NCBI GenBank assembly: GCA_016187515.1
Contig: JACPJN010000007.1
Location: forward strand, 140,336-204,335
Length of the DNA stretch: 64,000 bases
From: Candidatus Uhrbacteria bacterium
GTDB lineage: Bacteria; Patescibacteriota; Patescibacteriia; GWA2-47-26
Reading direction: 5' to 3'
In this document: positions 1 to 28,901 of the stretch, in pieces
How positions within the stretch are numbered: position 1 is the first letter of the stretch
Layout of the letters: each line of letters opens with the position of its first letter
The notes under the pieces: generated by a model
Databases searched by the model: none
Told to the model about the DNA's origin: nothing
What the model saw: only the letters and a program-made list of their open reading frames with translations
Translations under genes and position numbers: made by a program

Positions 1-446
1 CAGTGCTGACTGGGGCAAATTTCCAGATCAAAGACAAGCAGAAACCCGCACCCCGGCTGCGGACAGCGCACGGACGCTTGCTGGGGTTTTCCCAGATCCT
101 CAATGGAAGTTTCCAGCGGTTTTTGGTGGACAGGGCATCTCTCCAGCGTAGGAACAGCAAGCATTGCTTCCTCCTTGATTTGGCGGTTGACTGGGCCTGA
201 TTGGGTTAGGTAAAGAGCAAAACGAAATACCACCGGTACCTCCGGTGGCTTGCTGACAAGGTGAACTCTTGGAACTCCCTTGCTATGGTATCCTTACCAG
301 CTTAGCCACCGGAAATACGGAAATAAGCGTCGCTTTCACGTTAAGCGCGACGATCTTGCCGCAATTCTTAATGGCTTTCTGGTATGGCATACTTATGCAC
401 TTTATCACATCGCCACTTTCTTTGTCAAATCCAGGTGGGGATAAAC

Positions 447-1037
447 TTAAAATCCCAGCTCTTCCCCCACCCTCTTATATTCAAAAATCTCCGGATGCTT
501 GCCAAACCAATGCTTGATTTCATGCTCGGCTTCTTCCGGGGTCTCTGACACATGCAGTATGTTCTGCACCGCCCGTTTTTCTTTATTAGCTATCGCGGCA
601 GAATCACCTGAAAAATCGCCGCGAATCGTGCCCATCTCCGCAAGCACCGGCATGGTGTTCCCGGCAAGTTTGCGCACTACATCAATGGCGTGCGGACCTT
701 CAACTACGGCTTTAACCAGCGGGTAAGATACCATAAAATCAATAAGCCAGCCGCGCACCATTTTCCCAATCGCGAGTTTGTCCGCCGTGCCAAATTCTTT
801 GCGCGCATTGTAGCCGTACTTTTTATAGGTCAACAGGGTTTTTTCGCCAAGCCGCGCGATCCACTTTTCATCTTTGGGATAATGATCGTCAATCTGCTTA
901 CGCGTCGGCTTAAACATTTGCAGTGCGACAATTTTAAGTCGGCGCTGCTCAATGCGGGAGATTACCTCGCCAATCAGACCCTTGGCCACGCCGTCGGGTT
1001 TAATCAGCACGAATACGCGTTCTTGCTTATGGTTCAT
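447..1037 (-). CDS. ndk: nucleoside diphosphate kinase (long form with about 50-aa insertion)
   Basis: VFVLIKPDGV N-terminal motif, NILHVSE active-site His region and GDFSGD are NDK signatures. ORF 447..1064 trimmed to the MNHKQ start because the N-terminal extension overlaps the putative promoter. Confidence 0.82.
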   Translation of the reverse strand: MNHKQERVFVLIKPDGVAKGLIGEVISRIEQRRLKIVALQMFKPTRKQIDDHYPKDEKWIARLGEKTLLTYKKYGYNARKEFGTADKLAIGKMVRGWLIDFMVSYPLVKAVVEGPHAIDVVRKLAGNTMPVLAEMGTIRGDFSGDSAAIANKEKRAVQNILHVSETPEEAEHEIKHWFGKHPEIFEYKRVGEELGF

Positions 1038-1046
1038 ATGCCAAAT

Positions 1047-1075
1047 ACCATACCACACCCACAAGAACTTGACAA
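1047..1075 (-). promoter_or_regulatory. candidate sigma70-like promoter for ndk (TTGTCA, 17 nt, TATGGT), giving a near-leaderless mRNA
   Basis: Minus-strand -35 TTGTCA at 1075-1070, 17-nt spacer, -10 TATGGT at 1052-1047, then ATG at 1037-1035. Confidence 0.3.
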
Positions 1076-1099
1076 ATTCCGCCCACTATGATAGTGTAT

Positions 1100-1557
1100 A
1101 AACACGTAAGAAAGGACCGGCGCGGGTCCGCAAGGGCCTGGCTGGTCTAAGGGTTGTATGCGGAGGAGTCCGCCTGAACCTTCGCACAGTGGGGTAAAGA
1201 GACACTAAAAATCAACAGGTGGAATCAACAGATGGGTAAAATTGCCGTCTCACCCGGTCCTGTCGCGCGCAGGGCTGAAACCTCATACTTTCTTCGCACC
1301 TTCACCACAGTCGGGCATGGGAGTCATGGGTGTTGTCGGGTGGCAGCACACCTAGCGGGACTCCCGGAGAATGATTAGCAGTCACAATGCGCCTGACTGT
1401 GGCGCCACCTTTGTGGAACAGTTGTGGAAGCGGCGTAACCCCCTGGAGGAAGCATGCAGCACAAGGCCAGGGCCCAGCGTCCGTGCGCCACATCGTTGCA
1501 TTCCACATTCCCCCCCGAACCGTCACTGCGGCGCGGGGGGGGTTTTCTTTATTTTTT
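1100..1557 (+). ncRNA. candidate structured non-coding RNA, unclassified, in the ORF-free GC-rich gap between ndk and comEC-C
   Basis: About 450 bp with no credible ORF between two minus-strand genes. Multiple stable hairpins, e.g. GGACCGGCGCGGGTCC at 1114-1129 and GCGGAGGAGTCCGCC at 1160-1174, plus CCCTGG(N20)CCAGGG at 1441-1472. Plus-oriented intrinsic-terminator-like structure at the 3' end. Confidence 0.3.
1510..1557 (+). terminator. intrinsic-terminator-like hairpin (C7 / G8 stem) followed by TTTTCTTTATTTTTT on the plus strand
   Basis: CCCCCCC at 1510-1516 pairs with GGGGGGG at 1536-1542, then a T-run at 1543-1557. Plus strand only; on the minus strand an A-run precedes the hairpin. Overlaps the comEC-C stop codon. 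Confidence 0.4.
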
Positions 1558-2652
1558 CCGCTGCACGCGATATTGAAGCGCGGTTCCATCACTTTCAAAC
1601 ACCACATCCCCATCCTGATCATTTCTCAAAATCTCCACCCCTTGCTGTTTTAGTCGCCAGAGAGTTTGAAAATGCGGATGGCCAAAACGATTTTTGCGGC
1701 CGGATTGAATTACCGCATACTTTGGCGCCACCGCTTGCAAAAATTCTTTACTGGTTGAGGTTTTTGAGCCATGATGCCCGACTTTCAACACGTCTGAGCG
1801 CAGACGTGAGTCATCAGTTATCAGTTCACAGTTCACAGTTTTGTTTTGACACTTCCGTGAACCGTGAACCGACGACTGTGGACTAAGCAACGCGTCCTCC
1901 ACCCCTTCTTCCGCATCTCCGGTAAATAGAAAACTGGTTTTGCCATAAGTAAGTTTAGCCGCAATTGAGGTGGCGTTCAATCCTCCATCCGCTTCGCTTT
2001 TCTCGGCAATACGTTTTCCCGAAAGATCTTCTTGCGGCCAAAGAATTTCAAGTTTAGGTATTGGTATTTGTGATTCGTTTGGAAATTGGGAATTGTCTCC
2101 CTTTGGGAGATCTTCCGTAGGGAGAGAAATTGGAAATTCTTGGCTGGCTTTTGCGACCGCCATTGGGATCTCTCTATTCTTTATCTCTTTTAGCCACTCC
2201 AGATATTCGTCGGTGGTGTGCAGGACTCCGGTGGCCAATACCTGCTTCACGGTAAACCGTCGCAACACCTCAATTTGTCCCACGAGATGATCCGCGTGCG
2301 GATGGGTCAAAATCAGGAGTTCAATGGTCCGGTCCCAAAACGGTAAAGTGCGGCCCAATTTTTCCACCACCCGCGCGGATGGCCCGCCATCAATGAGTAC
2401 ATCAAATCCCTGCGCGGTACGCACATGAATCGCATCCCCCTGCCCCACATCATAAAAATGCACCGTAAGCGGCGCACCATCAGGGATGCCTTGAAACCAC
2501 AGCACGGAGGAAAGCGCGAAAATCCCCCAGACCCAGCGTGCCGCGGTACGATACTGGGGCGGTACCAGTGATCGGTACCCTTTGTAGATTGTCTGCTTCA
2601 GATCCGCCGCCGCTTCAGTTAATCGGGTTAAGCGAACTGCCGTTTTGAGCAT
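1549..2652 (-). CDS. comEC: ComEC/Rec2-family metallo-beta-lactamase domain protein (standalone C-terminal module of the competence channel) with N-terminal TM helix
   Basis: HFYDVGQGDAIHV, LILTHPHADHLVG and KVGHHGSKTS motifs of the ComEC C-terminal MBL domain. TM helix RWVWGIFALSSVLWF. Confidence 0.8.
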   Translation of the reverse strand: MLKTAVRLTRLTEAAADLKQTIYKGYRSLVPPQYRTAARWVWGIFALSSVLWFQGIPDGAPLTVHFYDVGQGDAIHVRTAQGFDVLIDGGPSARVVEKLGRTLPFWDRTIELLILTHPHADHLVGQIEVLRRFTVKQVLATGVLHTTDEYLEWLKEIKNREIPMAVAKASQEFPISLPTEDLPKGDNSQFPNESQIPIPKLEILWPQEDLSGKRIAEKSEADGGLNATSIAAKLTYGKTSFLFTGDAEEGVEDALLSPQSSVHGSRKCQNKTVNCELITDDSRLRSDVLKVGHHGSKTSTSKEFLQAVAPKYAVIQSGRKNRFGHPHFQTLWRLKQQGVEILRNDQDGDVVFESDGTALQYRVQRKK

Positions 2653-2671
2653 AAGAAAGTTTATTATCCCG

Positions 2672-2703
2672 GATCTATTATAAGCGATCGCTTATAATAG
2701 ATC
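2672..2703. promoter_or_regulatory. 32-bp perfect palindrome GATCTATTATAAGCGATCGCTTATAATAGATC (operator/promoter-like; TATAAT on both strands), 20 bp upstream of the comEC-C start
   Basis: Self-complementary over all 32 bp. Core GCGATCGC. Near-identical to the palindrome at 3350-3379. Confidence 0.55.
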
Positions 2704-2734
2704 TTATTCAGTATCGGCTTTTGAATTGCTACTG

Positions 2735-3337
2735 TTAAATCTTGAGCTTGCGCAAAAAACGTACGCTGCATTTTTTACAATCCACCTCTAAAACCTCGAA
2801 GAAACGCTCCAATCCGATATATTTCAACAATTCATCAATGCTGGGACGCGGATCACAGCGTGAAATCCAGATACTCCGCTGCAGCATGATAAATCCCCCC
2901 TGCTTTAGTAGCCGCCGAAAAAATTCCCGATGCGCCCGCTTGGATTCCGGCACATCATACATCGCCAGCCACAGTCGGCCATCGCGTTTTTTCTGATCGG
3001 GATTGCGCATCTGCATGAGAAACTGCAGTCGGAGAACTTCATACTTACCCTTGGCAGTTAGTTTGACAAGCTGCCGCTCGCCTTCTTTCACGGTTTCAAT
3101 ATAATGCTGATCCTTCAGATGCTTAATGCGCTGCCGCAGCCAATCGCGGTCGCGTAGGCGCCGCCGACGCTCTCGTTCACGGTAACCCCCCAGTCCTATC
3201 GCACTTTGACCGCGGCGCACATAACCCGGGATGTGGATAGAATCGGGGTTCATGTTGGCGGCCTGTAATTCCAGCAACGCAATCTGAAATTCCATTAATT
3301 CTAGGCGTATACTCATATCCTTCTGATTGTACCACAT
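2735..3337 (-). CDS. winged-helix + Cas2-like (PaaX-like) small protein; putative transcriptional regulator
   Basis: C-terminal segment RLWLAMYDVPESKRAHREFFRRLLKQGGFIMLQRSIWISRCD matches the Cas2 beta1-alpha1 pattern (xxVxxYDV..KR..k..kxLxxyGxrxQxSvf.c). N-terminal part has a wHTH-like pattern. The longer ORF (to 3463) reads through the palindrome and the comEC-N 3' end, so a start at M43 (3337) or M50 (3316) is preferred. Confidence 0.5.
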   Translation of the reverse strand: MWYNQKDMSIRLELMEFQIALLELQAANMNPDSIHIPGYVRRGQSAIGLGGYRERERRRRLRDRDWLRQRIKHLKDQHYIETVKEGERQLVKLTAKGKYEVLRLQFLMQMRNPDQKKRDGRLWLAMYDVPESKRAHREFFRRLLKQGGFIMLQRSIWISRCDPRPSIDELLKYIGLERFFEVLEVDCKKCSVRFLRKLKI

Positions 3338-3349
3338 TAACTGCGCGGG

Positions 3350-3379
3350 AGCTATAATAAGCGATCGCTTATTATAGCT
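3350..3379. promoter_or_regulatory. 30-bp perfect palindrome AGCTATAATAAGCGATCGCTTATTATAGCT (twin of 2672-2703), overlapping the comEC-N stop codon and 13-42 bp upstream of the Cas2-like gene
   Basis: Perfectly self-complementary. Differs from the first palindrome only by a TTA/TAA swap in the arms. TATAAT present on both strands. Confidence 0.55.
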
Positions 3380-4916
3380 CCGATTCCTCTGACTGAATAA
3401 GCGGCGATTTTTGCTGCGGATTTTCCTGACGTTTCCATTGCCGCATTGTCCAGACGATCGCACAAAATAAAACTACGGCGGATAAAAAAGAAAGACGAAT
3501 TTGAAAAACGCCAAATTGGGCCAGCCACTCCGCGATACGCACGATGTATTGAAGCGGCACGCGCGCGACCAGGGCAATCCCCAAGCCGAAAGGACGCCAG
3601 AGGAAATCCGCAACTACGGAGAGGAATCCCAGCGCCATCACCGCCGGAACCATGGGCACCACCAGAATATTAGCGAACAGCGAAAAGGGGCCCAAAATGC
3701 CGGTGTGATAGAGCAAAAGCGGAGTGGTAAACAGCAGGGCCGCCACTGAAGCCGCGCCAGCTTTGCGAATTTCCCAGACCTCGGGAAGCTTGCGCACCAG
3801 AGTACGCCGCGCAATATCATCAGCAAAATATATCAGCGCGATGGTGGCGACAAAAGAAAGCAAAAATCCTAAATCAAAACGCAGCAGCCGAGGATTAACG
3901 GCCAGCATTATCACGCCGGCCAGCGCGAGAGCATTGCGCGGATGGCGCGCGCGGCCAACTCCCTGCGCCAGAGAAACCAGCGAGCCCATAATCGCGGCGC
4001 GCACCACCGAGGATTCCGCGCCCGTGGCCAGCACAAAGACCAAAATCAAAAGCAGAGTTACGGGCAAGGCCTGTTTACGAGTCAGCCCCACATACACCAA
4101 GCCCCCCACCAGCACCCAAGAAATAATGGTGATGTTATAGCCGGAAAGCGCGGTGATATGGGCCAGACCAGTGGCGCGGAAGGCCTCTTTCAGCTCGCGC
4201 GTTAGACCAGAAGTATCGCCATAAAGAATTCCCGCCAGCAGTCCCCCGTAGGGATCGGGGAAAAGAGATTGCAGGCGAGAGTGGAAAATTTCACGGATTT
4301 GATAAAGTACGCCTCTCACCCCGCTCATCTCCTTAAGTAGCGCGGGGGCTAGTCCCCCGCTTGGCGGCACATTAAATGCCGCGCTACGCATCACAGAAAC
4401 ATGTTCCGGAAACGCGCAGGAAACATGAACTCCTTCGCGCACCGCCCAACGTTCATAGAAGGAGAGCGGCTGGGGTGCGCATTTAATAAAAAGTTCATCG
4501 CCAAAACGATACTCCGGGTATGTTGGCGCGTTAAGCAGCAGCTTACCGCTGGGGGCGGACAGTTGGAGGATATAGGCCGTGTTTTTTTCTCGCTTCCGGG
4601 GCGGACTATCCACTAAGCCGCGAACGGATATTTCCTGTCCAACATAGTAGGCAATATGCCGGGCGTTAATAACCGGTATAACTTGCGCGAAACGAAAAAC
4701 GCCAAGAAAAAATATTCCCAGCGCCAAGATCCCAATGACGGTTAATCGGGAACCCCCGAAGCTAAAACCGAGCGCGGATAAAACGCCACAGCCAATAAAT
4801 AAGGCGTACCAGATAAACGGCGGAGTAATCAGCCGATCCGCGGCGATCAAGGAGTGCAGTCCAATGCCGGCGATAAACGCGCAGCAAAAAGCAAAAAATG
4901 CCTTGGATTTGGTCAT
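3372..4916 (-). CDS. comEC: ComEC/Rec2 competence protein, polytopic membrane channel module (DUF4131 + competence domain)
   Basis: Many TM helices and a TALSGYNITIIS-type competence-domain motif. The start is placed at MTKSKAFFAF. The ORF's upstream extension overlaps the CGAAT repeat region. Confidence 0.75.
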   Translation of the reverse strand: MTKSKAFFAFCCAFIAGIGLHSLIAADRLITPPFIWYALFIGCGVLSALGFSFGGSRLTVIGILALGIFFLGVFRFAQVIPVINARHIAYYVGQEISVRGLVDSPPRKREKNTAYILQLSAPSGKLLLNAPTYPEYRFGDELFIKCAPQPLSFYERWAVREGVHVSCAFPEHVSVMRSAAFNVPPSGGLAPALLKEMSGVRGVLYQIREIFHSRLQSLFPDPYGGLLAGILYGDTSGLTRELKEAFRATGLAHITALSGYNITIISWVLVGGLVYVGLTRKQALPVTLLLILVFVLATGAESSVVRAAIMGSLVSLAQGVGRARHPRNALALAGVIMLAVNPRLLRFDLGFLLSFVATIALIYFADDIARRTLVRKLPEVWEIRKAGAASVAALLFTTPLLLYHTGILGPFSLFANILVVPMVPAVMALGFLSVVADFLWRPFGLGIALVARVPLQYIVRIAEWLAQFGVFQIRLSFLSAVVLFCAIVWTMRQWKRQENPQQKSPLIQSEESEL

Positions 4917-4921
4917 GGGGT

Positions 4922-4968
4922 GCGAATTGCGAATCAAACCCGAATTTACGAATCTGCGAATTCGAAAT
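4922..4968. promoter_or_regulatory. cluster of six CGAAT direct repeats (GCGAATTGCGAATC...CCGAAT...ACGAAT...GCGAAT...CGAAAT) immediately upstream of comEC-N
   Basis: Repeats at 4923, 4930, 4941, 4949, 4957 and 4963. The 14-mer GCGAATTGCGAATC recurs as ACGAATTACGAATC at 31752-31765. Confidence 0.4.
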
Positions 4969-5053
4969 TCGCAAATTCTCCGCCCAAGGCGCTGTGCCCG
5001 CCTTGGGCTGGGGATCCGCCTCGGGCGGAGAACCTCATTCGTTATTCGCACCC

Positions 5054-5386
5054 TTATCTGCGGTCATCAAGATCGCGCAAGGCAATCTTTTTTACCAAAT
5101 CCGAAAGCTGATGTTCGAGGTTTTCGAGCTTTCCAAAAAGCCGAAACACCGTATAAAAAAGCAGAATTACGGAAATGTAAAATACCGCGTCCGCTCCGCG
5201 GCCAACCCCGAGGAAGGTCGCGAGGCGGTTGGTAATTTGCGGTACCCAGACCAGCGCCCCGGCGGCAATCCATAGAACAATCCAAAATAAAAATCCGGCG
5301 CGAGAAATTGCTCCGTGCTTAAAGCGGCGGATTACTCCACTTGCGGCAATCAGCGCCAGGATGGAAATCAGGGGTTTAATCAGCAT
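5054..5386 (-). CDS. small membrane protein (DUF2304-like, typically partnered with GT2 / GtrA-type genes)
   Basis: 110 aa with 3 predicted TM helices. Lies directly downstream of a GT2 gene. Confidence 0.45.
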   Translation of the reverse strand: MLIKPLISILALIAASGVIRRFKHGAISRAGFLFWIVLWIAAGALVWVPQITNRLATFLGVGRGADAVFYISVILLFYTVFRLFGKLENLEHQLSDLVKKIALRDLDDRR

Positions 5387-5398
5387 ATTGCAGTAAAT

Positions 5399-5484
5399 TA
5401 AGTGAATAAGTTGTAAGTGAGTAAGTTGTAAAGTAACCTACTACTCACAATTACTTACTACTTACAACTTACTTACTTACACAC
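5399..5484. repeat. long imperfect inverted repeat built from GTAAGT / ACTTAC (TTGTAAGT) units
   Basis: Left arm taagtgaataagttgtaagtgagtaagttgtaaagtaa, right arm tactcacaattacttactacttacaacttacttacttac. A 12-nt exact complement (taagttgtaagt) plus flanking partial complementarity. Confidence 0.5.
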
Positions 5485-5492
5485 TAAATTTA

Positions 5493-6245
5493 CTATCGGA
5501 AGAACTTCAACACAATGAGTTTCCAGAGCGTTTCCAGTCCTCTTAAAAATCCCTGGCCTTTGGAAAGCGAATATTTATCGTACTTAACCGTAATCGGCAC
5601 TTCCGCCATTTTGAGTTTTAAGCGGGCAATCTCGCGGATAATTTCGGAGGAAACCTCCATGGTGGAGGTGCGCAGGCGCAACTTCTCGGCGGCTGCTCCG
5701 GAAAAGGCCCGAAAACCGGACTGACTATCAGTTACCCATATTCCGAACAGCAGCCAGGTAAAAAAGTTGCCACACCAATTCCCTATCTTCCGTGTTATTG
5801 GTATCCACCGTGCTGTCCTGTTGTCATGCTGTCCTGTTGTCATAAATCTTGAACCGATCACCACCTCCGCTTGCCCCTCCAGGATTGGCTGTATCACCCG
5901 CGCTATCTCGGCGGGATCATGCTGAAGATCGGCATCCAGAGTAACAATTATTGAGTTATTAGTTATTGAGTTATTGGTTATTAGTTGAATTGCTCCGTCA
6001 ATGCCGGTAGAAAGCGCCGCGCCCAGTCCGCGATTAATCGGGTGACGCAGCACGATCGCGCCGGCGGCGCGCGCAACTTCCGCAGTGCGATCAGTGGAGC
6101 CATCGTCAACTACAATAGTTTTAACCCCCTCTTCATCTCCCCCTTGAAAAGGGGGAGAAAGAAAGGGCTGCATTTTACATTTCCCCACCACCTCACCCAC
6201 CGTGCGTTCTTCGTTATAAGCAGGGATTACGACTACGACTTTCAT
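5493..6245 (-). CDS. GT2 family glycosyltransferase (polyprenol-phosphate sugar transferase, DPM1/GtrB-like)
   Basis: VVVIPAYNEE, VVDDGSTD and LDADLQHDP motifs. Contains an in-frame palindromic insert (MQPFLSPPFQGGDEEG) and two in-frame tandem duplications. Confidence 0.8.
   Translation of the reverse strand: MKVVVVIPAYNEERTVGEVVGKCKMQPFLSPPFQGGDEEGVKTIVVDDGSTDRTAEVARAAGAIVLRHPINRGLGAALSTGIDGAIQLITNNSITNNSIIVTLDADLQHDPAEIARVIQPILEGQAEVVIGSRFMTTGQHDNRTARWIPITRKIGNWCGNFFTWLLFGIWVTDSQSGFRAFSGAAAEKLRLRTSTMEVSSEIIREIARLKLKMAEVPITVKYDKYSLSKGQGFLRGLETLWKLIVLKFFR
6136..6158. repeat. CTCCCC-GGGGAG palindromic element copy a (TCTCCCCCTT GAAA AGGGGGAGA), in-frame inside the GT2 CDS
   Basis: Perfect hairpin. 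Encodes a P/G/E-rich loop absent from the other GT2s in the window. Confidence 0.6.
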
Positions 6246-6264
6246 AGTCCATTAGTGTAACACA

Positions 6265-6292
6265 AGGGGCCGGGTTTTCAAACCCGACCCCT
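6265..6292 (-). terminator. strong hairpin (13-bp stem, 1 mismatch) downstream of the FN3 surface-protein gene; possible terminator
   Basis: AGGGGCCGGGTTT tc AAACCCGACCCCT, followed by a direct repeat TCATGCTTCCTA x2 at 6296-6323. Confidence 0.3.
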
Positions 6293-6320
6293 AATTCATG
6301 CTTCCTAATTTTCATGCTTC

Positions 6321-7595
6321 CTACTGAAGCGCGTAGCCCCAGGCGCGTACGGTTGCCCAATCAATTGGTGACTTCGGAATGCGCCCAAAGACCGCTTTGA
6401 ATTTGGTAATACCGACTCGTTCCTTGACAAGATCCCGTTTGAATCGAATCCGATAAAGCATCGTATTCCAGGCCAGATCTTCTTTAGCAACCTTGAAGTC
6501 CGGCGCGGATTTACCAGTAAGCACTTTCCAGTATTTATCCCGCGCCACTCCGGCTTGCGCCACCTCTTTAGTCAGATTGCGCACCGTCGGCTTTTGTCCG
6601 TTCGAAATCTGCTCCGCAGCCAAGAGGAACTTACCGGCATCAGCGGCCACGGTTGCACCCAAAGTTTCGAGCATATCGCGTACCACCGCCAACCGCTCGC
6701 CAGAACCCAGCGCTTTAACCGCGGAGTTGATTGTTCCATAAGTGACGAAGTTGCTAGCCACTGCGCTGACTTCTGCGCCGAGCGTAACTTTGAATTCGCC
6801 GGCGCTGGATCCTACTTTCGCCGTATTCTGGGTTTCGGCCGCGGTATTGCGGACCACTCCAACGGCTTGCGCAAGAGCAGTCGCGTCTTTAACTATATTG
6901 ACTGAAACAGTGGGTGTAACAATCGGGGCCACCGGTGTTACTCCGGTTGTAGCGGCTGGCGCCGCCACGGTTGGCGCCGCAGTTGGGAAGGTCGGACCGG
7001 TTGCTCCGCCGCCGCCACCACCAGATGCTACTGCGGCTGTTCCACCACCGGAAGAGGTGGTAGTAAATGAGCCAGTCAACGCCGCGCTATCGTTCAGGTT
7101 GTTATCACGAGCGCAAACTGCCACATTATAGGTGGTTCCAGCAGTCAAGCTGCTCAAACTCACTGAGGTAGAAGTTGAGGTAGTAGAGCTTCCGCCGGAA
7201 CATCCGGATTGCGCGCTAGTGCTGTAATGGATCAGATAAGTGGAAATACTGCCGCTGCCAGTGGCAATCGCAGTCCCCAAAGTTGTGGTAGTTGGCGCGG
7301 TCCAGGAAACCGTAACCGAGGTCTGCTGCATACTGCTTGTGGATAAACTCGTAGGCGCTCGCGGCGGGGCATCAGAAGATGTCCTTGCGGCATTATAGCC
7401 ATAGCTTCCGCTGTAGTATCCATAATTTCCTGCGGCTTGGTTCAAGGCCTGCACGCTTTGGTTTACAAACGCGGATGAAAGCACAAAAAGGGTAAATATA
7501 GTAATACCCAGTCCACTTTGCCAGCTCTTCCTCTTTTTCGAATCACTCATCACGTTTTTAAAAATTTTCTCGACAAAATGACCAAAATCTCGCAT
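6321..7595 (-). CDS. secreted/cell-surface protein with N-terminal signal/TM segment, fibronectin type III-like domain and a G/T/A/P-rich linker
   Basis: Hydrophobic N-terminus GLGITIFTLFVLSSAFV. FN3-like pattern SVTVSWTAP...YLIHYS...TTYNVAVCARD. Low-complexity GGGGGGATGPTFPTAAPT linker. Confidence 0.5.
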   Translation of the reverse strand: MRDFGHFVEKIFKNVMSDSKKRKSWQSGLGITIFTLFVLSSAFVNQSVQALNQAAGNYGYYSGSYGYNAARTSSDAPPRAPTSLSTSSMQQTSVTVSWTAPTTTTLGTAIATGSGSISTYLIHYSTSAQSGCSGGSSTTSTSTSVSLSSLTAGTTYNVAVCARDNNLNDSAALTGSFTTTSSGGGTAAVASGGGGGGATGPTFPTAAPTVAAPAATTGVTPVAPIVTPTVSVNIVKDATALAQAVGVVRNTAAETQNTAKVGSSAGEFKVTLGAEVSAVASNFVTYGTINSAVKALGSGERLAVVRDMLETLGATVAADAGKFLLAAEQISNGQKPTVRNLTKEVAQAGVARDKYWKVLTGKSAPDFKVAKEDLAWNTMLYRIRFKRDLVKERVGITKFKAVFGRIPKSPIDWATVRAWGYALQ

Positions 7596-7768
7596 ATATA
7601 TGGGTATTTACGATATTACTTTTAATTAAAGAGAGAATTATCCACACCTTTCGGTGTTTTACATGGTCTATTATAGCACTTTGTATAAAGAACAGAAACC
7701 CTACTTATCCACAACAAACTACCCTAAACTATGGGCCGCAGTCCACCCGCTTGTTCATTAAGACGTAA

Positions 7769-7797
7769 TTGACAACCCTCTTGTTACAATTCATACT
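7769..7797 (+). promoter_or_regulatory. candidate promoter (TTGACA, 17 nt, CATACT) for the 7824 gene
   Basis: -35 at 7769-7774, -10 at 7792-7797, in an AT-rich divergent intergenic region. Confidence 0.3.
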
Positions 7798-7823
7798 ACC
7801 CTACACGCTTACACGCGTAATAT

Positions 7824-9557
7824 ATGGGATTAGTATCCGCTATACAATCCGGGACAGGTCAGCGCGCACTCAAAGCGGCGTCGTTTCTCATTTATCTTAC
7901 AGCGATTGTCCTGGTACTGCCGGGATTTATTTCCTGGGTTCATCGCCTGATCTTTATTGGCTATGGCTTATTCATTTTATGGGTAATCCGAGACAAGTCC
8001 GCCAATAATAAATCAGGGGATGCGGATCCCGAAATAATCCCAGGCAAAAATTTCTGGACGGCTTTACTGATATTTTCTCTACTATATTTATTCTTAGGCC
8101 GCCTTTACATGTTTATCCGCTATGGCGCCTCCCCGCTGGGATATGATACCGGATTCTATTGGCAATATTTTCGCCTCATTATTATTAACGGGAATATCGG
8201 CACCGCGGTCGGTTCGCACCTGACCTATTCTTCGTGGTTTCCGTTGGGATTTTTAGGGTTGCCCGCGCTTACCGTAATTCATCTACTCCACGTCTTCCAT
8301 CAGTTGCTCACCGCCGGCGCGCTTTATTTTCTTCTGCGCTCGCTGCCGTTGCGCAAGTACTCGTTTCCCATCAGCGTACTTGGTGTATTTTTGTTCGCCC
8401 TTTCCATCAACCAATTCATGGCCTTTTGGTGGATGTTTTATAAACAGCTGCTGGCGATTCCGTTTCTCCTTTTGGCCATGGGATTATTTTTCCGCCGCTC
8501 CATAATCGCGATACCGGTCGCCGGGCTTGCCGCCGCTATACATCTTTCAAGCGCCATCCCGCTTGGCTTAGCGTTAATTATATTTATTACTATTCAACTT
8601 CTCATCTGCGTTGCCAAAAGACATCTTCCGGAAAAAGAATTCATCTACCTTATTCTGGCGGGACTACTGGGGTCAATACTGTTCATTGCCCTTAAAGGTA
8701 CCGCGGACATCCACTACTATCTTACGCTGTTTCTCAAGTATAAAGGGCTGGCGACCAACGCGCGCTCCTGGGAGATTGAACAAATCCGCGGACTGTTTAT
8801 TCCCTTTACTACTTTTCGCCTAAACGCGCTCTTCTATCTTCCCTTCGCGCTTATCGGAATCCTACAATTGCGCCGCTTTATCGAAACTCGCCTAACCGAA
8901 CGCACCCTCTTAATTCCCATAACTTTTGCGGCCTCGCTGATTTTGGTCAGCTTTCCATTTATCCACCAAACTCGCTCGCTGATTTTCTTTGACCTTTTAC
9001 TGATTATTTTAGCGGCCGCGCCGATATTTCATTTTATTAAAAACTTCCGGCGCGAGCGTCATGGCACAGTACTGCTCGGCCTCTTATGCTTTGGTTTTGT
9101 GGCCTTTACCTCTAGGGTAATCTGGAATCATGAACCGCAATTGTACGCCGCCGAGGCCGCTGAACTGCGAGTATTGGAACGCCAAGGCACGGCCGAGGAC
9201 CTTCGTAAAATTGACGACTACGTCATGGTGGTCTCTTCGCTCTATACCCCTTGGGCTTATGCGTTTACCGGATTTGGACCAACTATTGTGCCGGGCTGGC
9301 TAACCTGGGATAAATGGGATTTAAAAATGTGGGAGGAATTCTGGTTTAAAGCCAATAATGATCGGCGGCTGCAGCTTCTGCAAATGTACGGAGACCATGT
9401 TATATATATTTTTATTGGAGAACATCAGCTAAAACAGGTTAATACCCCGCGGCTAAAAGAATTTATTGAGACCGATCCGCACTTTACCCGTTTTAGCCCG
9501 CACATCTGGAAATATACGCCGCACCTTCAGGATACCGATTCACCCACAAACCTATGA
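7824..9557 (+). CDS. large polytopic membrane protein, putative GT-C-fold glycosyltransferase (ArnT/PMT/YfhO-like)
   Basis: More than 10 predicted TM helices, then a C-terminal soluble domain. Sits in a glycan locus. Family not resolvable by eye. Confidence 0.35.
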   Translation: MGLVSAIQSGTGQRALKAASFLIYLTAIVLVLPGFISWVHRLIFIGYGLFILWVIRDKSANNKSGDADPEIIPGKNFWTALLIFSLLYLFLGRLYMFIRYGASPLGYDTGFYWQYFRLIIINGNIGTAVGSHLTYSSWFPLGFLGLPALTVIHLLHVFHQLLTAGALYFLLRSLPLRKYSFPISVLGVFLFALSINQFMAFWWMFYKQLLAIPFLLLAMGLFFRRSIIAIPVAGLAAAIHLSSAIPLGLALIIFITIQLLICVAKRHLPEKEFIYLILAGLLGSILFIALKGTADIHYYLTLFLKYKGLATNARSWEIEQIRGLFIPFTTFRLNALFYLPFALIGILQLRRFIETRLTERTLLIPITFAASLILVSFPFIHQTRSLIFFDLLLIILAAAPIFHFIKNFRRERHGTVLLGLLCFGFVAFTSRVIWNHEPQLYAAEAAELRVLERQGTAEDLRKIDDYVMVVSSLYTPWAYAFTGFGPTIVPGWLTWDKWDLKMWEEFWFKANNDRRLQLLQMYGDHVIYIFIGEHQLKQVNTPRLKEFIETDPHFTRFSPHIWKYTPHLQDTDSPTNL

Positions 9558-27770: not shown

Positions 27771-28901
27771 TCACTTACCGTTTAAAAATTGCATAAAGGC
27801 CGCTTTATTTTGCTGCGGCGTAGTGGTTGGTCGCCCGAGATTTGCGCGCGCGCCCTTGCGTACGCGCACCTCTAAAAGACATGGCCCTTTTTGCAAACGT
27901 AATTCGTTAAGTGCGCCGACCAGTTGCGCGGCGGTCTCTACACACCAAGCTTTTTTATAAGCGCACGCCAAGGCAACTTTGGCTATATCAACTTTAAAAC
28001 CCGCGGTGGGCTGACCCCCTACTGAATCGTGGGCGCCGTTGTTAATCACAATGTGCTTCAAATTCTCCCGCGCTTGCGCGCCAATTACTGCCAGCGCCCC
28101 CATATGCATAATCAACGCTCCATCACCGTCAACACAATATACCTGGCGATCCGGTTTAGCAAGCGCGATCGCAAGCGCGATCGAGGAAGAATGGCCCATC
28201 GATCCAACCGTTAAAAAATCGCGATGATGACCTTGTCCTTTGGCTTCTCGATATTCGTAAAGCTCACGGGACGCCATTCCGGTGGTTGAGACTATTACAT
28301 CGTTTTCTCCCAAGGAATCTACAATGCGCTTAAGCGCATCTTCGCGAGTCATCTCCAAATGAGTTTCAACCGGCGCGCCTATCGGATACGCTTCAAAAAC
28401 GCCTTTTCGTACGATAAGCGCGTATGGCTGACTCTCGGATTGCATTATTTTAAAAGCACGCGCCAGCGCGGCATTGGCACCCTCCGGATCCGATGGAAGA
28501 ATCTCAAATGGAATACCAAGCGTTTCAAAAAGTGTAGTGGTAACCTCCCCTTGCTTAAGATGCTGGGGCTCATCATGGACGCCCGGCTCACCGCGCCAAC
28601 CAATCAAAAGTAGCATGGGGATCCCGTATACTTTTGGATCGGTAAGCGAAGTTAAGGGGTTCACAATATTGCCTTGACCGGCATTTTGGAGATAAACCAG
28701 GGCCGGATTGCCGGTTGCCAAATAATGCCCGGCGGCAAGCCCAACGGCGTTACCCTCATTGGCCGCGATAATATGGTTCTCTTGCGAAACCTCCGCGCTC
28801 ACGCACGCGCAGAACTCTTTCAGCAGGGAATCCGGCACGCCGGTAAAAAAATTTATACCCTGCGCCCGTAACCTGACGACAAAATCTTTCGGGGATATCA
28901 T
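27771..28901 (-). CDS. ppd: phosphonopyruvate decarboxylase (ThDP-dependent)
   Basis: Ppd-like N-terminus with [10 protein letters not shown], plus the ThDP-binding motif [14 protein letters not shown]. Confidence 0.78.

What the first reader, a model, noticed from the sequence alone, without database searches (positions are those of the whole stretch)
2672..3379. wHTH + Cas2-like gene bracketed by twin perfect 30-32-bp palindromes between the two halves of comEC
A roughly 200-aa ORF has a C-terminal segment matching the Cas2 beta1-alpha1 signature (LWLAMYDVPESKRAHREFFRRLLKQGGFIMLQRSIW) and a wHTH-like N-terminus. This is a PaaX-like architecture, with no CRISPR array or other cas gene present.

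The ORF sits exactly between the comEC membrane-module gene and the comEC MBL-module gene. It is flanked by two nearly identical, perfectly self-complementary palindromes with core GCGATCGC, at 2672-2703 and 3350-3379. Each palindrome contains TATAAT on both strands. One lies 13-42 bp upstream of the Cas2-like gene and overlaps the comEC-N stop. The other lies 20 bp upstream of the comEC-C start.

Two readings are possible. It could be a dimeric regulator with two symmetric operator/promoter sites, autoregulating itself and controlling the DNA-uptake nuclease module. Or it could be a small palindrome-bounded cassette that inserted between the comEC modules.
Basis: partly seen in the sequence, partly recalled or inferred. 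Interest (0 to 1): 0.75.

Follow-up and report, generated by a model that had tools for sequence, protein, structure and literature searches.

The report
Palindrome-bracketed PaaX-like gene cassette
A small DNA-binding protein gene, mislabelled Cas2, sits between two copies of its own long palindrome, and this three-part block recurs, often in several copies per genome, across the tiny-genome CPR bacteria, where it looks like a self-regulating, portable unit that no paper I could find describes.

Summary
A 193-aa gene (3316..2735, minus strand) encodes a winged-helix domain plus a Cas2-fold domain. Its best fold match is E. coli PaaX, followed by Cas2. It is flanked by perfect palindromes of 34 bp (3348-3381) and 32 bp (2672-2703), found nowhere else in the 64 kb.

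This is not a one-off. About 3,000 protein clusters share the architecture, nearly all of the loci I fetched come from CPR/Patescibacteria genomes, and several genomes carry more than one copy. In 86 loci, palindromes centred on CGNNCG flank the gene at least 25 times more often than background.

The upstream palindrome overlaps an extended -10 promoter placed for a leaderless transcript, which suggests autoregulation. Homology between copies at different sites runs only from palindrome to palindrome. Syntenic relatives have comEC-N and MBL adjacent with no cassette, so the block is an insertion.

comEC is split across these lineages regardless, so the cassette did not split it. In the window the downstream palindrome sits about 35 bp before the MBL start, so local control of MBL is plausible. 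Family-wide, though, half of the downstream neighbours are convergent.

The two palindromes of a locus differ by compensated changes, which implies hairpin or cruciform formation, or copying of one arm from the other. How the block moves is unknown.

The parts
3348..3381 (.). Upstream palindrome P2, 34 bp and perfect: GGAGCTATAATAAGCGATCGCTTATTATAGCTCC. It contains the comEC-N stop codon (3374-3372). Its centre is 48 nt before the cassette ATG, so it covers roughly -32 to -65.
3326..3334 (-). Predicted extended -10 promoter element TGgTACAAT, 9 nt before the ATG, implying a leaderless or near-leaderless transcript. The 15-nt block TTAATGTGGTACAAT is identical in the orthologous locus L007.
   Evidence: sequence inspection; the consensus scanner did not list it because no -35 is present
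2735..3316 (-). Cassette gene, 193 aa. It is a short PaaX-like protein (wHTH + Cas2-fold, no PaaX_C domain) that NCBI annotates as 'CRISPR-associated endonuclease Cas2'.
3005..3196 (-). Winged helix-turn-helix region, about residues 41-104: a long helix, a beta-hairpin wing at 73-86, then another helix.
   Evidence: Model secondary structure. PaaX N-terminal region, AspA and TubR hits. DUF6293_C wHTH hit at E=9e-5, below its cutoff.
2777..2992 (-). Cas2-fold (PaaX_M) domain, residues 109-180. Family-invariant or nearly invariant residues are D121, P123, E124, R130, R134, Q146, S148 and W150.
2672..2703 (.). Downstream palindrome P1, 32 bp and perfect: GATCTATTATAAGCGATCGCTTATAATAGATC. It starts 31 nt after the cassette stop codon. 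Its centre is about 35 nt before the MBL ATG.
2663..2668 (-). -10-like hexamer GATAAT between P1 and the MBL start, 10 nt before the ATG at 2652. With P1 this reproduces the family's own operator-promoter geometry (inference).
1549..2652 (-). Stand-alone ComEC metallo-beta-lactamase module gene, the downstream neighbour. It is not part of the cassette but may have come under its control.
3372..4919 (-). ComEC membrane module gene (DUF4131 + Competence), the upstream neighbour. Its last codons and its stop are supplied by P2.

Best explanation
The locus is one copy of a compact, self-contained cassette that is widespread in CPR/Patescibacteria: [palindrome] - [leaderless gene for a short PaaX-type protein] - [palindrome].

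**What the protein probably does (inferred).** It has a winged-helix DNA-binding domain and a Cas2-fold domain, which in PaaX and Cas2 forms the dimer. It most likely binds, as a symmetric dimer, the CGNNCG-centred palindromes that bracket its own gene.

**Upstream palindrome (position shown, function inferred).** It occupies the -35/spacer region of an extended -10 promoter that fires at or next to the ATG. Binding there would autoregulate the gene.

**Downstream palindrome.** It begins at or just after the stop codon and is a second copy of the same site. Its general role is unresolved. It could be a looping partner, a roadblock or insulator, or the other end of the unit.

**In this window.** The downstream palindrome lies about 35 bp before the comEC MBL start, followed by a -10-like GATAAT. 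That is the same geometry as the family's own promoter, so MBL expression has probably been captured by the cassette.

**Inheritance.** The block from palindrome to palindrome is the unit that is inherited, duplicated and relocated. Here it is an old insertion into the junction of the already split comEC-N and MBL genes of one Uhrbacteria clade.

**Symmetry of the palindromes.** They are kept perfectly symmetric although their sequence drifts. This points to hairpin or cruciform formation, or to templated copying of one arm from the other, rather than protein half-site recognition alone.

**Shown versus inferred.** Shown: architecture, fold, specificity and family-wide recurrence of the palindromes, promoter geometry, presence/absence at a syntenic site, and unit boundaries. 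Inferred: that the protein binds the palindromes, that it represses, and how the unit moves.
For: **Architecture and fold:**

**Family size:** 5,596 clusters at E<1e-3 and 3,087 at E<1e-10, almost all 160-215 aa. There were 515 tblastn-confirmed relatives in species-representative genomes. The 80 fetched loci are overwhelmingly from Patescibacteria MAGs (a few carry other, probably wrong, taxon labels) and include up to 4 loci from one MAG.

**Close homologues:** All 7 loci L001-L007 carry flanking repeats centred on CG[AG][TC]CG on one or both sides. These are near-identical long palindromes in five, and degenerate or partly cut off by the contig end in L001 and L004. Arm sequences differ between loci, and the genomic contexts differ.

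**Palindrome enrichment:** There are 68 long palindromes near the gene against 20 elsewhere in 476 kb. Near-gene cores are CGGCCG (30), CGATCG (21) and CGACCG (4). A minimal NNCGNNCGNN palindrome occurs upstream in 48 of 86 loci (1.8 expected) and downstream in 40 of 86 (1.3 expected).

**Positions:** The median centre is 36.5 nt before the ATG and 21 nt after the stop.

**Promoter:** In the Daviesbacteria orthologues the core sits between a TTGACA -35 and a TACAAT -10 that lies 8 nt before the ATG. A second copy follows the stop codon directly. -10-like hexamers peak 6-9 nt before the ATG in 34 of 87 loci.

**Insertion:** Syntenic loci L088-L090 have fn3, GT2, DUF2304, comEC-N, MBL and NDK in the same order, with no cassette and no palindrome.

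**Unit boundaries:** L016 versus L020, L050 versus L070, and L017/L020 and L030/L045.

**Symmetry:** Between the two copies of a locus there are 30 compensated double changes, 13 uncompensated ones and 49 single changes. About 4 compensated changes would be expected by chance.
Against: - No binding or expression data exist. Promoters are inferred from sequence only, and the simple sigma-70 scan did not call one upstream of the gene.
- In the window the palindrome centre is at about -48, further upstream than the family mode of about -30. It could therefore activate, or merely insulate.
- About a third of family loci have no detectable CGNNCG palindrome (29 of 86 by the minimal test, 34 of 87 by the long-palindrome test), so the association is not universal.
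- A dimeric repressor does not need a perfect 32-58 bp palindrome, nor compensated changes. Part of the signal is therefore not explained by operator function.
- Several subfamilies are stably syntenic across species (L034, L037, L039, L059, L061, L066, L082). They behave like resident genes.
- No near-identical copies at different sites were found, so recent mobility is not shown.
- The cassette's GC and GC3 match the host.
Confidence: 0.6

Rival explanations
1. Self-mobilising element. The Cas2-fold domain is an active metal-dependent nuclease or strand-transferase, and the wHTH guides it to the palindromes. These extrude as hairpins or cruciforms with CGNNCG at the tip and act as the ends at which the unit is cut and rejoined. 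On this reading the cassette is a new kind of small transposon-like or excisable element.
For: - The Cas2 beta1 Asp (D121) and the residues around it are invariant in 150 diverse representatives.
- The layout resembles an insertion sequence. It is 0.6-0.75 kb, carries one small ferredoxin-fold protein, has near-identical hairpin-capable ends, has a stop codon abutting the right end, and has its promoter at the left end.
- The arms vary while pairing is kept through compensated changes, and the tip is conserved.
- The asymmetric centre is inverted between the two ends in L019, GCCC versus GGGC.
- Genomes carry several copies, each with its own arms.
- Copies occupy different sites, and homology ends at the palindromes.
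- Copies recur next to comEC-N and next to tRNA genes.
Against: - No near-identical copies, target-site duplications, solo palindromes at empty sites or excision junctions were seen.
- Conservation of the Asp may be structural. I did not test whether PaaX keeps it.
- There is no HUH, Tyr or Ser catalytic signature.
- Many members are stably syntenic.
- There are no hits in viral contigs.
- Perfect symmetry can arise passively, by template switching at quasi-palindromes (established knowledge).
Confidence: 0.17
2. Resident host regulator of DNA uptake. The protein is an ordinary transcription factor that controls the comEC operon through two operators. Its presence between comEC-N and MBL reflects function, not mobility.
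For: - P1 sits about 35 bp before the MBL ATG, followed by a -10-like GATAAT.
- The gene lies immediately downstream of comEC-N in three distant lineages: the window clade, L030 (comEC-N, gene, MBL) and L074. It also lies near comEC genes in L071. I estimate about 0.06 such adjacencies by chance.
- The arrangement is conserved in L001 and L007 at 59-70% protein identity.
Against: - Most family members are not near comEC.
- Close homologues sit next to an M50 peptidase, a TrwB-like ATPase and a Cys-rich protein.
- No partner gene is conserved across loci.
- Related Uhrbacteria lack the gene at this junction.
- Half of the downstream neighbours are convergent.
Confidence: 0.12
3. RNA-level device. 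The palindromes act as hairpins in the transcript, serving as 5'/3' stabilisers, terminators or processing sites. The Cas2/VapD-like domain would be a ribonuclease acting on them.
For: - Cas2 and VapD proteins have reported RNase activity (PMC3506569, and established knowledge).
- The downstream palindrome starts 0-30 nt after the stop codon, like a terminator.
- The hairpins are stable.
Against: - Mismatches in imperfect palindromes show no G-U bias: 11 GT/TG, 7 AC/CA and 24 other.
- A/T tracts occur in both polarities, so most sites lack a 3' U-tract.
- With leaderless promoters downstream of the palindrome, the upstream copy would usually not be part of the gene's own mRNA.
- The terminator scan does not call either palindrome.
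Confidence: 0.06
4. It is a genuine orphan CRISPR Cas2, as annotated, or the palindromes are a generic genome-wide repeat of the HIP1 type with no link to the gene.
For: - NCBIfam cas2 scores above its cutoff.
- The GCGATCGC core equals the cyanobacterial HIP1 sequence (my own knowledge).
Against: - The Cas2-fold domain is fused to a wHTH, and the best fold match is PaaX.
- The window has no CRISPR array.
- Pfam CRISPR_Cas2 is below its cutoff.
- GCGATCGC occurs at chance frequency, and the long palindrome occurs only at the gene.
- The palindromes co-occur with the gene family at least 25 times above background.
Confidence: 0.02

Closest known systems
PaaX, the phenylacetyl-CoA-responsive repressor of the paa operon (E. 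coli; PDB 8a39; Pfam PF07848 + PF20803 + PF08223)
   Same: - N-terminal winged helix followed by the Cas2-like middle domain; it is the best structural match (133 aligned columns).
- PaaX_M is well above its Pfam cutoff.
- The family profile hits the PaaX wHTH at E=9e-5.
- PaaX is a dimeric repressor that binds palindromic operators overlapping promoters (my own knowledge).
   Different: - No PaaX_C effector-binding domain; the protein ends at residue 193.
- TIGR02277 scores 21.7 bits against a cutoff of 264.55.
- No paa genes were seen nearby.
- About 160-215 aa, with a leaderless-type promoter.
- The gene is bracketed by two copies of its site.
- Found in CPR, often in several copies, and portable.
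Cas2, the CRISPR adaptation protein, especially type II Cas2 (PDB 5zyf, 6qxf, 5xvn)
   Same: - Ferredoxin-like fold.
- Shared sequence signature F-D-x-P ... R..R ... GF..Q.S[VI][WFY] (alignment).
- TIGR01573 scores above its cutoff.
- The flanking repeats are 30-40 bp and partly palindromic, which is the size of CRISPR repeats.
   Different: - Fused to a wHTH.
- No CRISPR array in 64 kb; cas1 was not searched by HMM.
- Only two repeats, and they flank the gene itself.
- Pfam CRISPR_Cas2 is below its cutoff.
IS200/IS605-type insertion sequences and RAYT/REP systems (small elements or genes flanked by hairpin-forming palindromes)
   Same: - A unit of about 0.7 kb with a single small protein of ferredoxin-like fold.
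- Near-identical palindromes at both ends whose structure is conserved while their sequence drifts.
- Cognate pairing of each gene copy with its own palindromes.
- In a Kerfeldbacteria locus a true Y1 transposase gene sits right after MBL.
   Different: - No HUH motif or catalytic Tyr among the conserved columns.
- The palindromes are not dispersed.
- No evidence of recent transposition.
AspA and TubR, centromere-binding winged-helix proteins of partition systems
   Same: Weak but repeated profile similarity of the wHTH (E about 5e-4 for AspA and 0.03 for TubR). These are small dimers that bind palindromic or repeated sites next to their own gene and autoregulate (my own knowledge).
   Different: No partner NTPase or adaptor gene is conserved nearby. 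A Cas2-fold domain is present instead.

Membership tests
PaaX family (TIGR02277 equivalog) | N-terminal winged-helix DNA-binding domain | tested here: met
   The model shows helix, beta-hairpin wing and helix. Foldseek aligns the wHTH plus middle domain to 8a39. The family profile hits PaaX residues 57-113.
PaaX family (TIGR02277 equivalog) | Central Cas2-like domain (Pfam PF20803) | tested here: met
   E=6.9e-14, 52.1 bits against a cutoff of 24.
PaaX family (TIGR02277 equivalog) | C-terminal PaaX_C effector domain and a full-length equivalog score | tested here: not met
   There is no PaaX_C hit, and the protein ends about 13 residues after the Cas2-like domain. TIGR02277 scores 21.7 bits against a cutoff of 264.55.
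PaaX family (TIGR02277 equivalog) | Genomic linkage to paa (phenylacetate catabolism) genes | tested here: not met
   The neighbours are comEC-N, MBL, NDK, DUF2304 and a glycosyltransferase. No partner gene is conserved across 86 loci.
CRISPR Cas2 | Cas2 ferredoxin fold with the beta1 Asp signature | tested here: met
   TIGR01573 scores 31 bits against 24.5. PDB Cas2 hits have E about 1e-3 by sequence and Foldseek probability 0.99-1.0. D121 is invariant.
CRISPR Cas2 | Stand-alone protein of about 90-110 aa encoded next to cas1 and a CRISPR array | tested here: not met
   The protein is 193 aa with a fused wHTH. The 64-kb window has no repeated 20-mer. The 410 neighbouring ORFs of 86 loci contain no recurrent partner. 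cas1 was not searched by HMM.
IS200/IS605 and RAYT (HUH Y1 enzymes with hairpin ends) | HUH metal-binding motif and catalytic tyrosine | tested here: not met
   The column conservation of 151 aligned family sequences shows no invariant His pair or Tyr. The conserved residues are D, P, E, R, R, Q, S and W.
IS200/IS605 and RAYT (HUH Y1 enzymes with hairpin ends) | Hairpin-forming palindromes at both ends (IS) or flanking the gene (RAYT) | tested here: met
IS200/IS605 and RAYT (HUH Y1 enzymes with hairpin ends) | Many dispersed copies of the element or of its REP palindromes in the genome | tested here: inconclusive
   The window has only the two flanking copies in 64 kb, and in related loci cassette-type palindromes occur essentially only next to the gene. 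Complete genomes could not be scanned.
Autoregulated repressor with a promoter-embedded palindromic operator (functional class) | A palindrome overlapping the gene's own -35/-10 region | tested here: met
   In the Daviesbacteria orthologues the layout is TTGACA, spacer containing CGATCG, TACAAT, 8 nt, ATG. The family's median centre is 36.5 nt before the ATG, with a -10 peak 6-9 nt before it. In the window, P2 covers -32 to -65 relative to the ATG.
Autoregulated repressor with a promoter-embedded palindromic operator (functional class) | The protein binds the palindrome and represses transcription | not testable with these tools
   Requires EMSA or footprinting and reporter assays.

The most novel reading that the evidence does not exclude
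The cassette is an autonomous mobile element of a new class. A Cas2-fold protein, targeted by its fused winged helix, would cut and rejoin DNA at hairpin- or cruciform-forming terminal palindromes with a conserved CGNNCG tip. CPR bacteria, which mostly lack CRISPR, would then harbour thousands of 'Cas2 plus repeat' selfish units. These could be relatives of the ancestral state from which Cas2 and palindromic CRISPR repeats were recruited.
Probability: 0.13. Interest if true: 0.9.

Novelty: new variant of a known kind. Interest (0 to 1): 0.62.

Why it matters
- **Annotation.** Thousands of CPR genes are currently named 'CRISPR-associated endonuclease Cas2' although they are two-domain PaaX-like DNA-binding proteins with no CRISPR context. 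This inflates apparent CRISPR content in a group known for lacking it.
- **Regulation in tiny genomes.** CPR genomes encode very few regulators. A multi-copy family of self-contained operator-gene-operator blocks that can drop in front of host genes would be a notable, portable layer of regulation. Here the host gene is the nuclease module of the DNA-uptake channel.
- **Palindrome biology.** Perfectly symmetric 30-58 bp palindromes with a fixed 6-bp centre and freely drifting arms form a clean natural system for studying how long palindromes are maintained. They may also be recognised as cruciforms.
- **CRISPR origins.** If the Cas2-fold domain proves catalytic on these sites, it would link Cas2 to a repeat-bounded mobile unit, which bears on how CRISPR adaptation arose.

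Tried and rejected
**Searches that found nothing**
- Scans with the close-homologue alignment A2 found no relatives in genome contigs or metagenome contigs. Alignments A1 and A3 were too divergent for pattern scanning. Only the tighter A4 worked.
- An exact search for the window palindrome in metagenome contigs gave 0 hits.
- The viral contig scan found no relatives.
- Rfam in gathering mode on the whole window, and in E-value mode on 1000-1620, gave no hits. ARAGORN found no tRNA or tmRNA in 1-8000.
- Six literature searches found no description of the family or of the palindromes. Two papers on Cas2/VapD were checked and do not mention it.
- PADLOC and PHROGs gave only Cas2 and CARF-wHTH domain-level hits, with no defence-system or phage family.

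**Ideas rejected**
- 'The cassette split comEC' is rejected because MBL is stand-alone throughout these lineages and overlaps comEC-N in cassette-free relatives.
- 'Generic HIP1-like repeat' is rejected.
- Canonical intrinsic terminators are rejected, because there is no consistent U-tract and the scan is negative.
- The RNA-wobble signature is absent.
- No locus carries tandem copies or a second family gene.
- No partner gene is conserved.
- The third GCGATCGC site at 28165 is coding sequence and unrelated.

**Inconclusive tests**
- The correlation between arm sequence and protein relatedness is positive (Mantel r=0.27, 0 of 2000 permutations reached it). Shared descent of the whole block explains it equally well, so it does not discriminate between models.
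- Contigs that end inside the palindromes were first considered evidence of multi-copy repeats. They are better explained by assembly-graph breaks at long palindromes.
Full report
**1. What is in the window**

All relevant genes are on the minus strand.
- The ComEC membrane module (DUF4131 + Competence) runs from 4919 to 3372.
- A 193-aa ORF runs from 3316 to 2735.
- A stand-alone metallo-beta-lactamase (MBL) gene runs from 2652 to 1549.

Two perfect palindromes bracket the small ORF.
- P2 is 3348-3381, 34 bp: GGAGCTATAATAAGCGATCGCTTATTATAGCTCC.
- P1 is 2672-2703, 32 bp: GATCTATTATAAGCGATCGCTTATAATAGATC.

Their shared 24-mer occurs nowhere else in the 64 kb, even with three mismatches allowed, and 0 were expected in 100 shuffles. 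The bare octamer GCGATCGC is at chance frequency, and its third occurrence at 28165 is unrelated coding sequence.

The comEC-N stop codon lies inside P2. P1 ends 19 nt before the MBL start. The two palindromes differ at mirrored positions (TATAAT/ATTATA against TATTAT/ATAATA, and the outer GGAGC against GATC), so each stays perfectly self-complementary. As single strands they fold at -14.1 and -11.3 kcal/mol, z-scores -4.3 and -5.3.

**2. The protein**

- Pfam gives PaaX_M, 'PaaX central Cas2-like domain', at E=6.9e-14. A sub-threshold winged-helix hit and a sub-threshold CRISPR_Cas2 hit accompany it.
- NCBIfam's cas2 model scores just above its cutoff (31 against 24.5 bits). That explains the GenBank name 'CRISPR-associated endonuclease Cas2 [Candidatus Uhrbacteria bacterium]'. 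The PaaX equivalog is far below its cutoff.
- An AlphaFold2 model (pLDDT 74.5, above 85 in the Cas2-like half) has E. coli PaaX 8a39 as its best PDB match, over 133 columns spanning both domains. Dozens of Cas2 structures follow.
- Profiles of the family hit type II Cas2 through the motif F-D-x-P...R..R...GF..Q.S[VI]W. They hit PaaX, AspA and TubR through the winged helix.
- There is no PaaX_C domain.
- The window has no repeated 20-mer, hence no CRISPR array. It has no second family gene.

**3. It is a family, and the palindromes belong to it**

*Family size.* An exhaustive profile search found 5,596 50%-identity clusters at E<1e-3 and 3,087 at E<1e-10. Nearly all are 160-215 aa. D121, P123, R130, R134, Q146 and S148 are essentially invariant.

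*Close homologues (45-71% identity).* All seven loci I could fetch carry flanking repeats centred on CG[AG][TC]CG on one or both sides.
- In five loci they are near-identical 30-40 bp palindromes whose arms are unrelated to those of the window.
- In L001 and L004 they are degenerate, or partly cut off by the contig end.
- Contexts differ: comEC-N/MBL (L001, L007), an M50 peptidase (L002), a TrwB-like ATPase (L003), a Cys-rich protein (L004) and others.

*Wider scan.* A scan of species-representative genomes confirmed 515 relatives. The 80 fetched loci are overwhelmingly from Patescibacteria MAGs. A few carry other, probably wrong, taxon labels. Up to four loci come from one MAG.

*Enrichment across 86 non-redundant loci.*
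- Long palindromes (arms of 11 or more): 68 lie within 320 bp of the gene and 20 lie elsewhere in 476 kb.
- The near-gene cores are CGGCCG (30), CGATCG (21) and CGACCG (4). The few distant ones that match a cassette palindrome lie 450-715 bp from the same gene.
- Even a minimal 10-bp NNCGNNCGNN palindrome is found upstream in 48 of 86 loci (1.8 expected) and just after the stop in 40 of 86 (1.3 expected).
- No viral relatives were found.

**4. Promoter geometry supports autoregulation**

The clearest case is the Daviesbacteria/Microgenomates orthologues. There the core sits inside a textbook promoter: TTGACA, then about 17 nt containing TGTACGATCGTACA, then TACAAT, then 8 nt, then ATG. A second copy of the core plus TACAA(T/G) follows the stop codon directly.

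Family-wide, -10-like hexamers peak sharply 6-9 nt before the ATG, in 34 of 87 loci against about 1 per position elsewhere. That implies leaderless transcripts. The upstream palindrome centre is at a median of 36.5 nt before the ATG, which places it over the -35/spacer region.

In the window, TGgTACAAT (3334-3326) lies 9 nt before the ATG. The block TTAATGTGGTACAAT is identical in the orthologous locus L007. P2 covers about -32 to -65.

This fits a dimeric PaaX-type repressor acting on its own promoter. Binding itself is inferred, not shown.

**5. The block behaves as a unit and is an insertion here**

*Empty sites.* Related Uhrbacteria keep the same gene order: fn3, GT2, DUF2304, comEC-N, MBL, NDK. 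In them comEC-N and MBL overlap by 41 nt (L089, L090) or lie 39 bp apart (L088). There is no cassette and no palindrome.

*Shared insertion.* L007 and L001 share the insertion. L007 aligns contiguously with the window through comEC-N and the cassette gene, at 71.8% over 1,478 bp. The insertion is therefore old in that clade. Its GC and GC3 match the host.

*Boundaries.*
- L016 and L020 sit at non-homologous sites in different genomes. They are similar only from palindrome to palindrome, and identity falls to random outside.
- L050 and L070 share 92% identity over 596 bp, repeat to repeat, but have different junctions with a common flank.
- L017/L020 and L030/L045 are within-genome paralogues whose similarity is confined to the unit.

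*The comEC split.* All 120 best MBL homologues are stand-alone proteins of about 260-430 aa. The cassette therefore did not split comEC. It entered a pre-existing junction, one where other lineages have inserted other genes (DeoC and FBPase in Kerfeldbacteria).

**6. What the downstream palindrome does is unresolved**

- Its centre lies about 15-30 nt after the stop in most loci.
- The next gene is co-directional in 18 loci and convergent in 17, and is usually more than 60 nt away. It therefore cannot generally be a neighbour's operator.
- It is not a canonical terminator. A and T tracts occur in both polarities, and the scan is negative.
- In this window, however, the P1 centre is about 35 nt before the MBL ATG, with GATAAT 10 nt before it. 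This mimics the family's own promoter layout, so local capture of MBL expression is plausible.
- The cassette also lies directly after comEC-N in two distant lineages: L030 (comEC-N, gene, MBL) and L074. It lies near comEC genes in L071. I estimate about 0.06 such adjacencies by chance. I cannot tell whether this reflects function, target preference or ancestry.

**7. The symmetry puzzle**

- 51 of 77 palindromes are perfect outside the central 4 nt.
- The mismatches that exist show no G-T bias, which argues against an RNA hairpin under selection.
- Between the two copies of one locus there are 30 compensated double changes, against 13 uncompensated doubles and 49 single changes. About 4 compensated changes would be expected if the arms mutated independently.
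- The same protein must serve both copies, so half-site recognition alone does not explain this. Either the DNA is used as a hairpin or cruciform with CGNNCG at the tip, or one arm is repeatedly copied from the other. The second is known to happen by template switching at quasi-palindromes (established knowledge).
- The arm consensus is AAATTTT..ACGG|CCGT..AAAATTT. This is AnTn-type sequence, associated with DNA bending, on either side of a GC core.

**8. Verdict**

*Best explanation (confidence about 0.6).* This is an autoregulated, portable operator-gene-operator cassette encoding a short PaaX-like DNA-binding protein. It is one member of a large CPR family that I found undescribed in six literature searches.

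*Rivals.*
- A self-mobilising Cas2-fold element (0.17).
- A resident comEC regulator (0.12).
- An RNA-level device (0.06).
- A true orphan Cas2 or a generic repeat (0.02).

*Family membership.* It is not a member of the PaaX equivalog family, because it has no PaaX_C domain, no paa linkage and a score far below cutoff. It is not bona fide Cas2, because it is a fusion with no array. It works most like PaaX.

*Novelty.* A new variant of a known kind. A minority possibility is that it is a categorically new mobile element.

Noticed in passing
window 1065-1548: A 484-bp non-coding stretch with 57.6% GC (window mean 48.4%) lies between NDK and the end of MBL. In the syntenic loci L088 and L089 the two genes are only about 65-100 bp apart. 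There was no Rfam hit, even in E-value mode, and no tRNA or tmRNA. It could be an unrecognised structured RNA or another insertion.
   Followed up: partly
window about 1812-1872, inside the MBL ORF: A tandem or inverted motif (GTTCACAGTTCACAG ... CGTGAACCGTGAACC) lies within the coding sequence. It encodes an extra loop, and the window's MBL is 367 aa against about 290-340 aa in most homologues. It may be a small hairpin insertion tolerated in frame.
   Followed up: no
window 5399-5481 and 4975-5032: Two more hairpin-capable inverted repeats lie in the intergenic regions next to DUF2304 and comEC-N: TGTAAGTGAGTAAGTTGTAA/TTACAACTTACTTACTTACA and TTCTCCGCCCAAGGCG/CGCCTCGGGCGGAGAA. Neither resembles the cassette palindromes.
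   Followed up: no
L030 1423-4293; L074 1089-3382; L071 48-3234: Distant family members also sit directly after comEC-N. L030 has comEC-N, gene, MBL. L074 has comEC-N, gene, YebC. In L071 the gene lies about 1 kb from a divergent comEC-N/MBL pair. The adjacency recurs in at least 3 lineages, far above chance by my estimate.
   Followed up: partly
L031, L032, L040, L048, L057, L067, L068, L073: In Microgenomates-type loci the gene lies within about 100-150 bp of tRNA genes. It sits between tRNA-Pro(cgg) and tRNA-Arg(cct) in L057, L068 and L073. In L031 the same two tRNAs are adjacent to each other and the gene lies beside them. tRNA-Trp, tRNA-Thr or tRNA-Leu are the neighbours in other loci. 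This is reminiscent of integrative elements.
   Followed up: partly
L012 849-888; L036 3728-3763 and 3897-3940: Some loci carry a third, and in L036 a fourth, copy of the locus-specific palindrome 450-715 bp from the gene. The enclosed stretches contain no second family gene. They could be remnants of former cassettes or extra cargo space.
   Followed up: partly
L016 2854-3396 versus L020 1419-1961: Between paralogous cassettes, the half of the gene encoding the N-terminus and wHTH is 61-70% identical. The half encoding the Cas2-fold domain is 88-97% identical, and the inner palindrome is 100% identical. This suggests either diversifying change in the DNA-reading half or gene conversion in the 3' half.
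   Followed up: no
L019 2907-2936 versus 3615-3662: The asymmetric centre is inverted between the upstream and downstream palindromes (CCGCCCGG against CCGGGCGG), like 'flip/flop' ends. In L002 and L027 the asymmetric centres are in direct orientation.
   Followed up: no
L094 3870-4394 (Kerfeldbacteria PFMD01000052.1): An IS200-type Y1 transposase gene overlaps the end of the stand-alone comEC MBL gene. DeoC and FBPase genes lie between comEC-N and MBL. The split comEC junction seems to be a recurrent landing place for other DNA.
   Followed up: no
window 2735-3316, protein residues 28, 180 and 183: The window's subfamily has a nearly invariant His28 and a C-terminal C-x-x-C (C180, C183) that the wider family lacks. 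This may be a small metal site.
   Followed up: no
L002, L003, L004, L005, L007 contig ends: Short metagenome contigs carrying close homologues repeatedly begin or end inside the palindrome. This is probably an assembly-graph break at long perfect palindromes. If so, these cassettes will be systematically fragmented and under-counted in metagenome assemblies.
   Followed up: no
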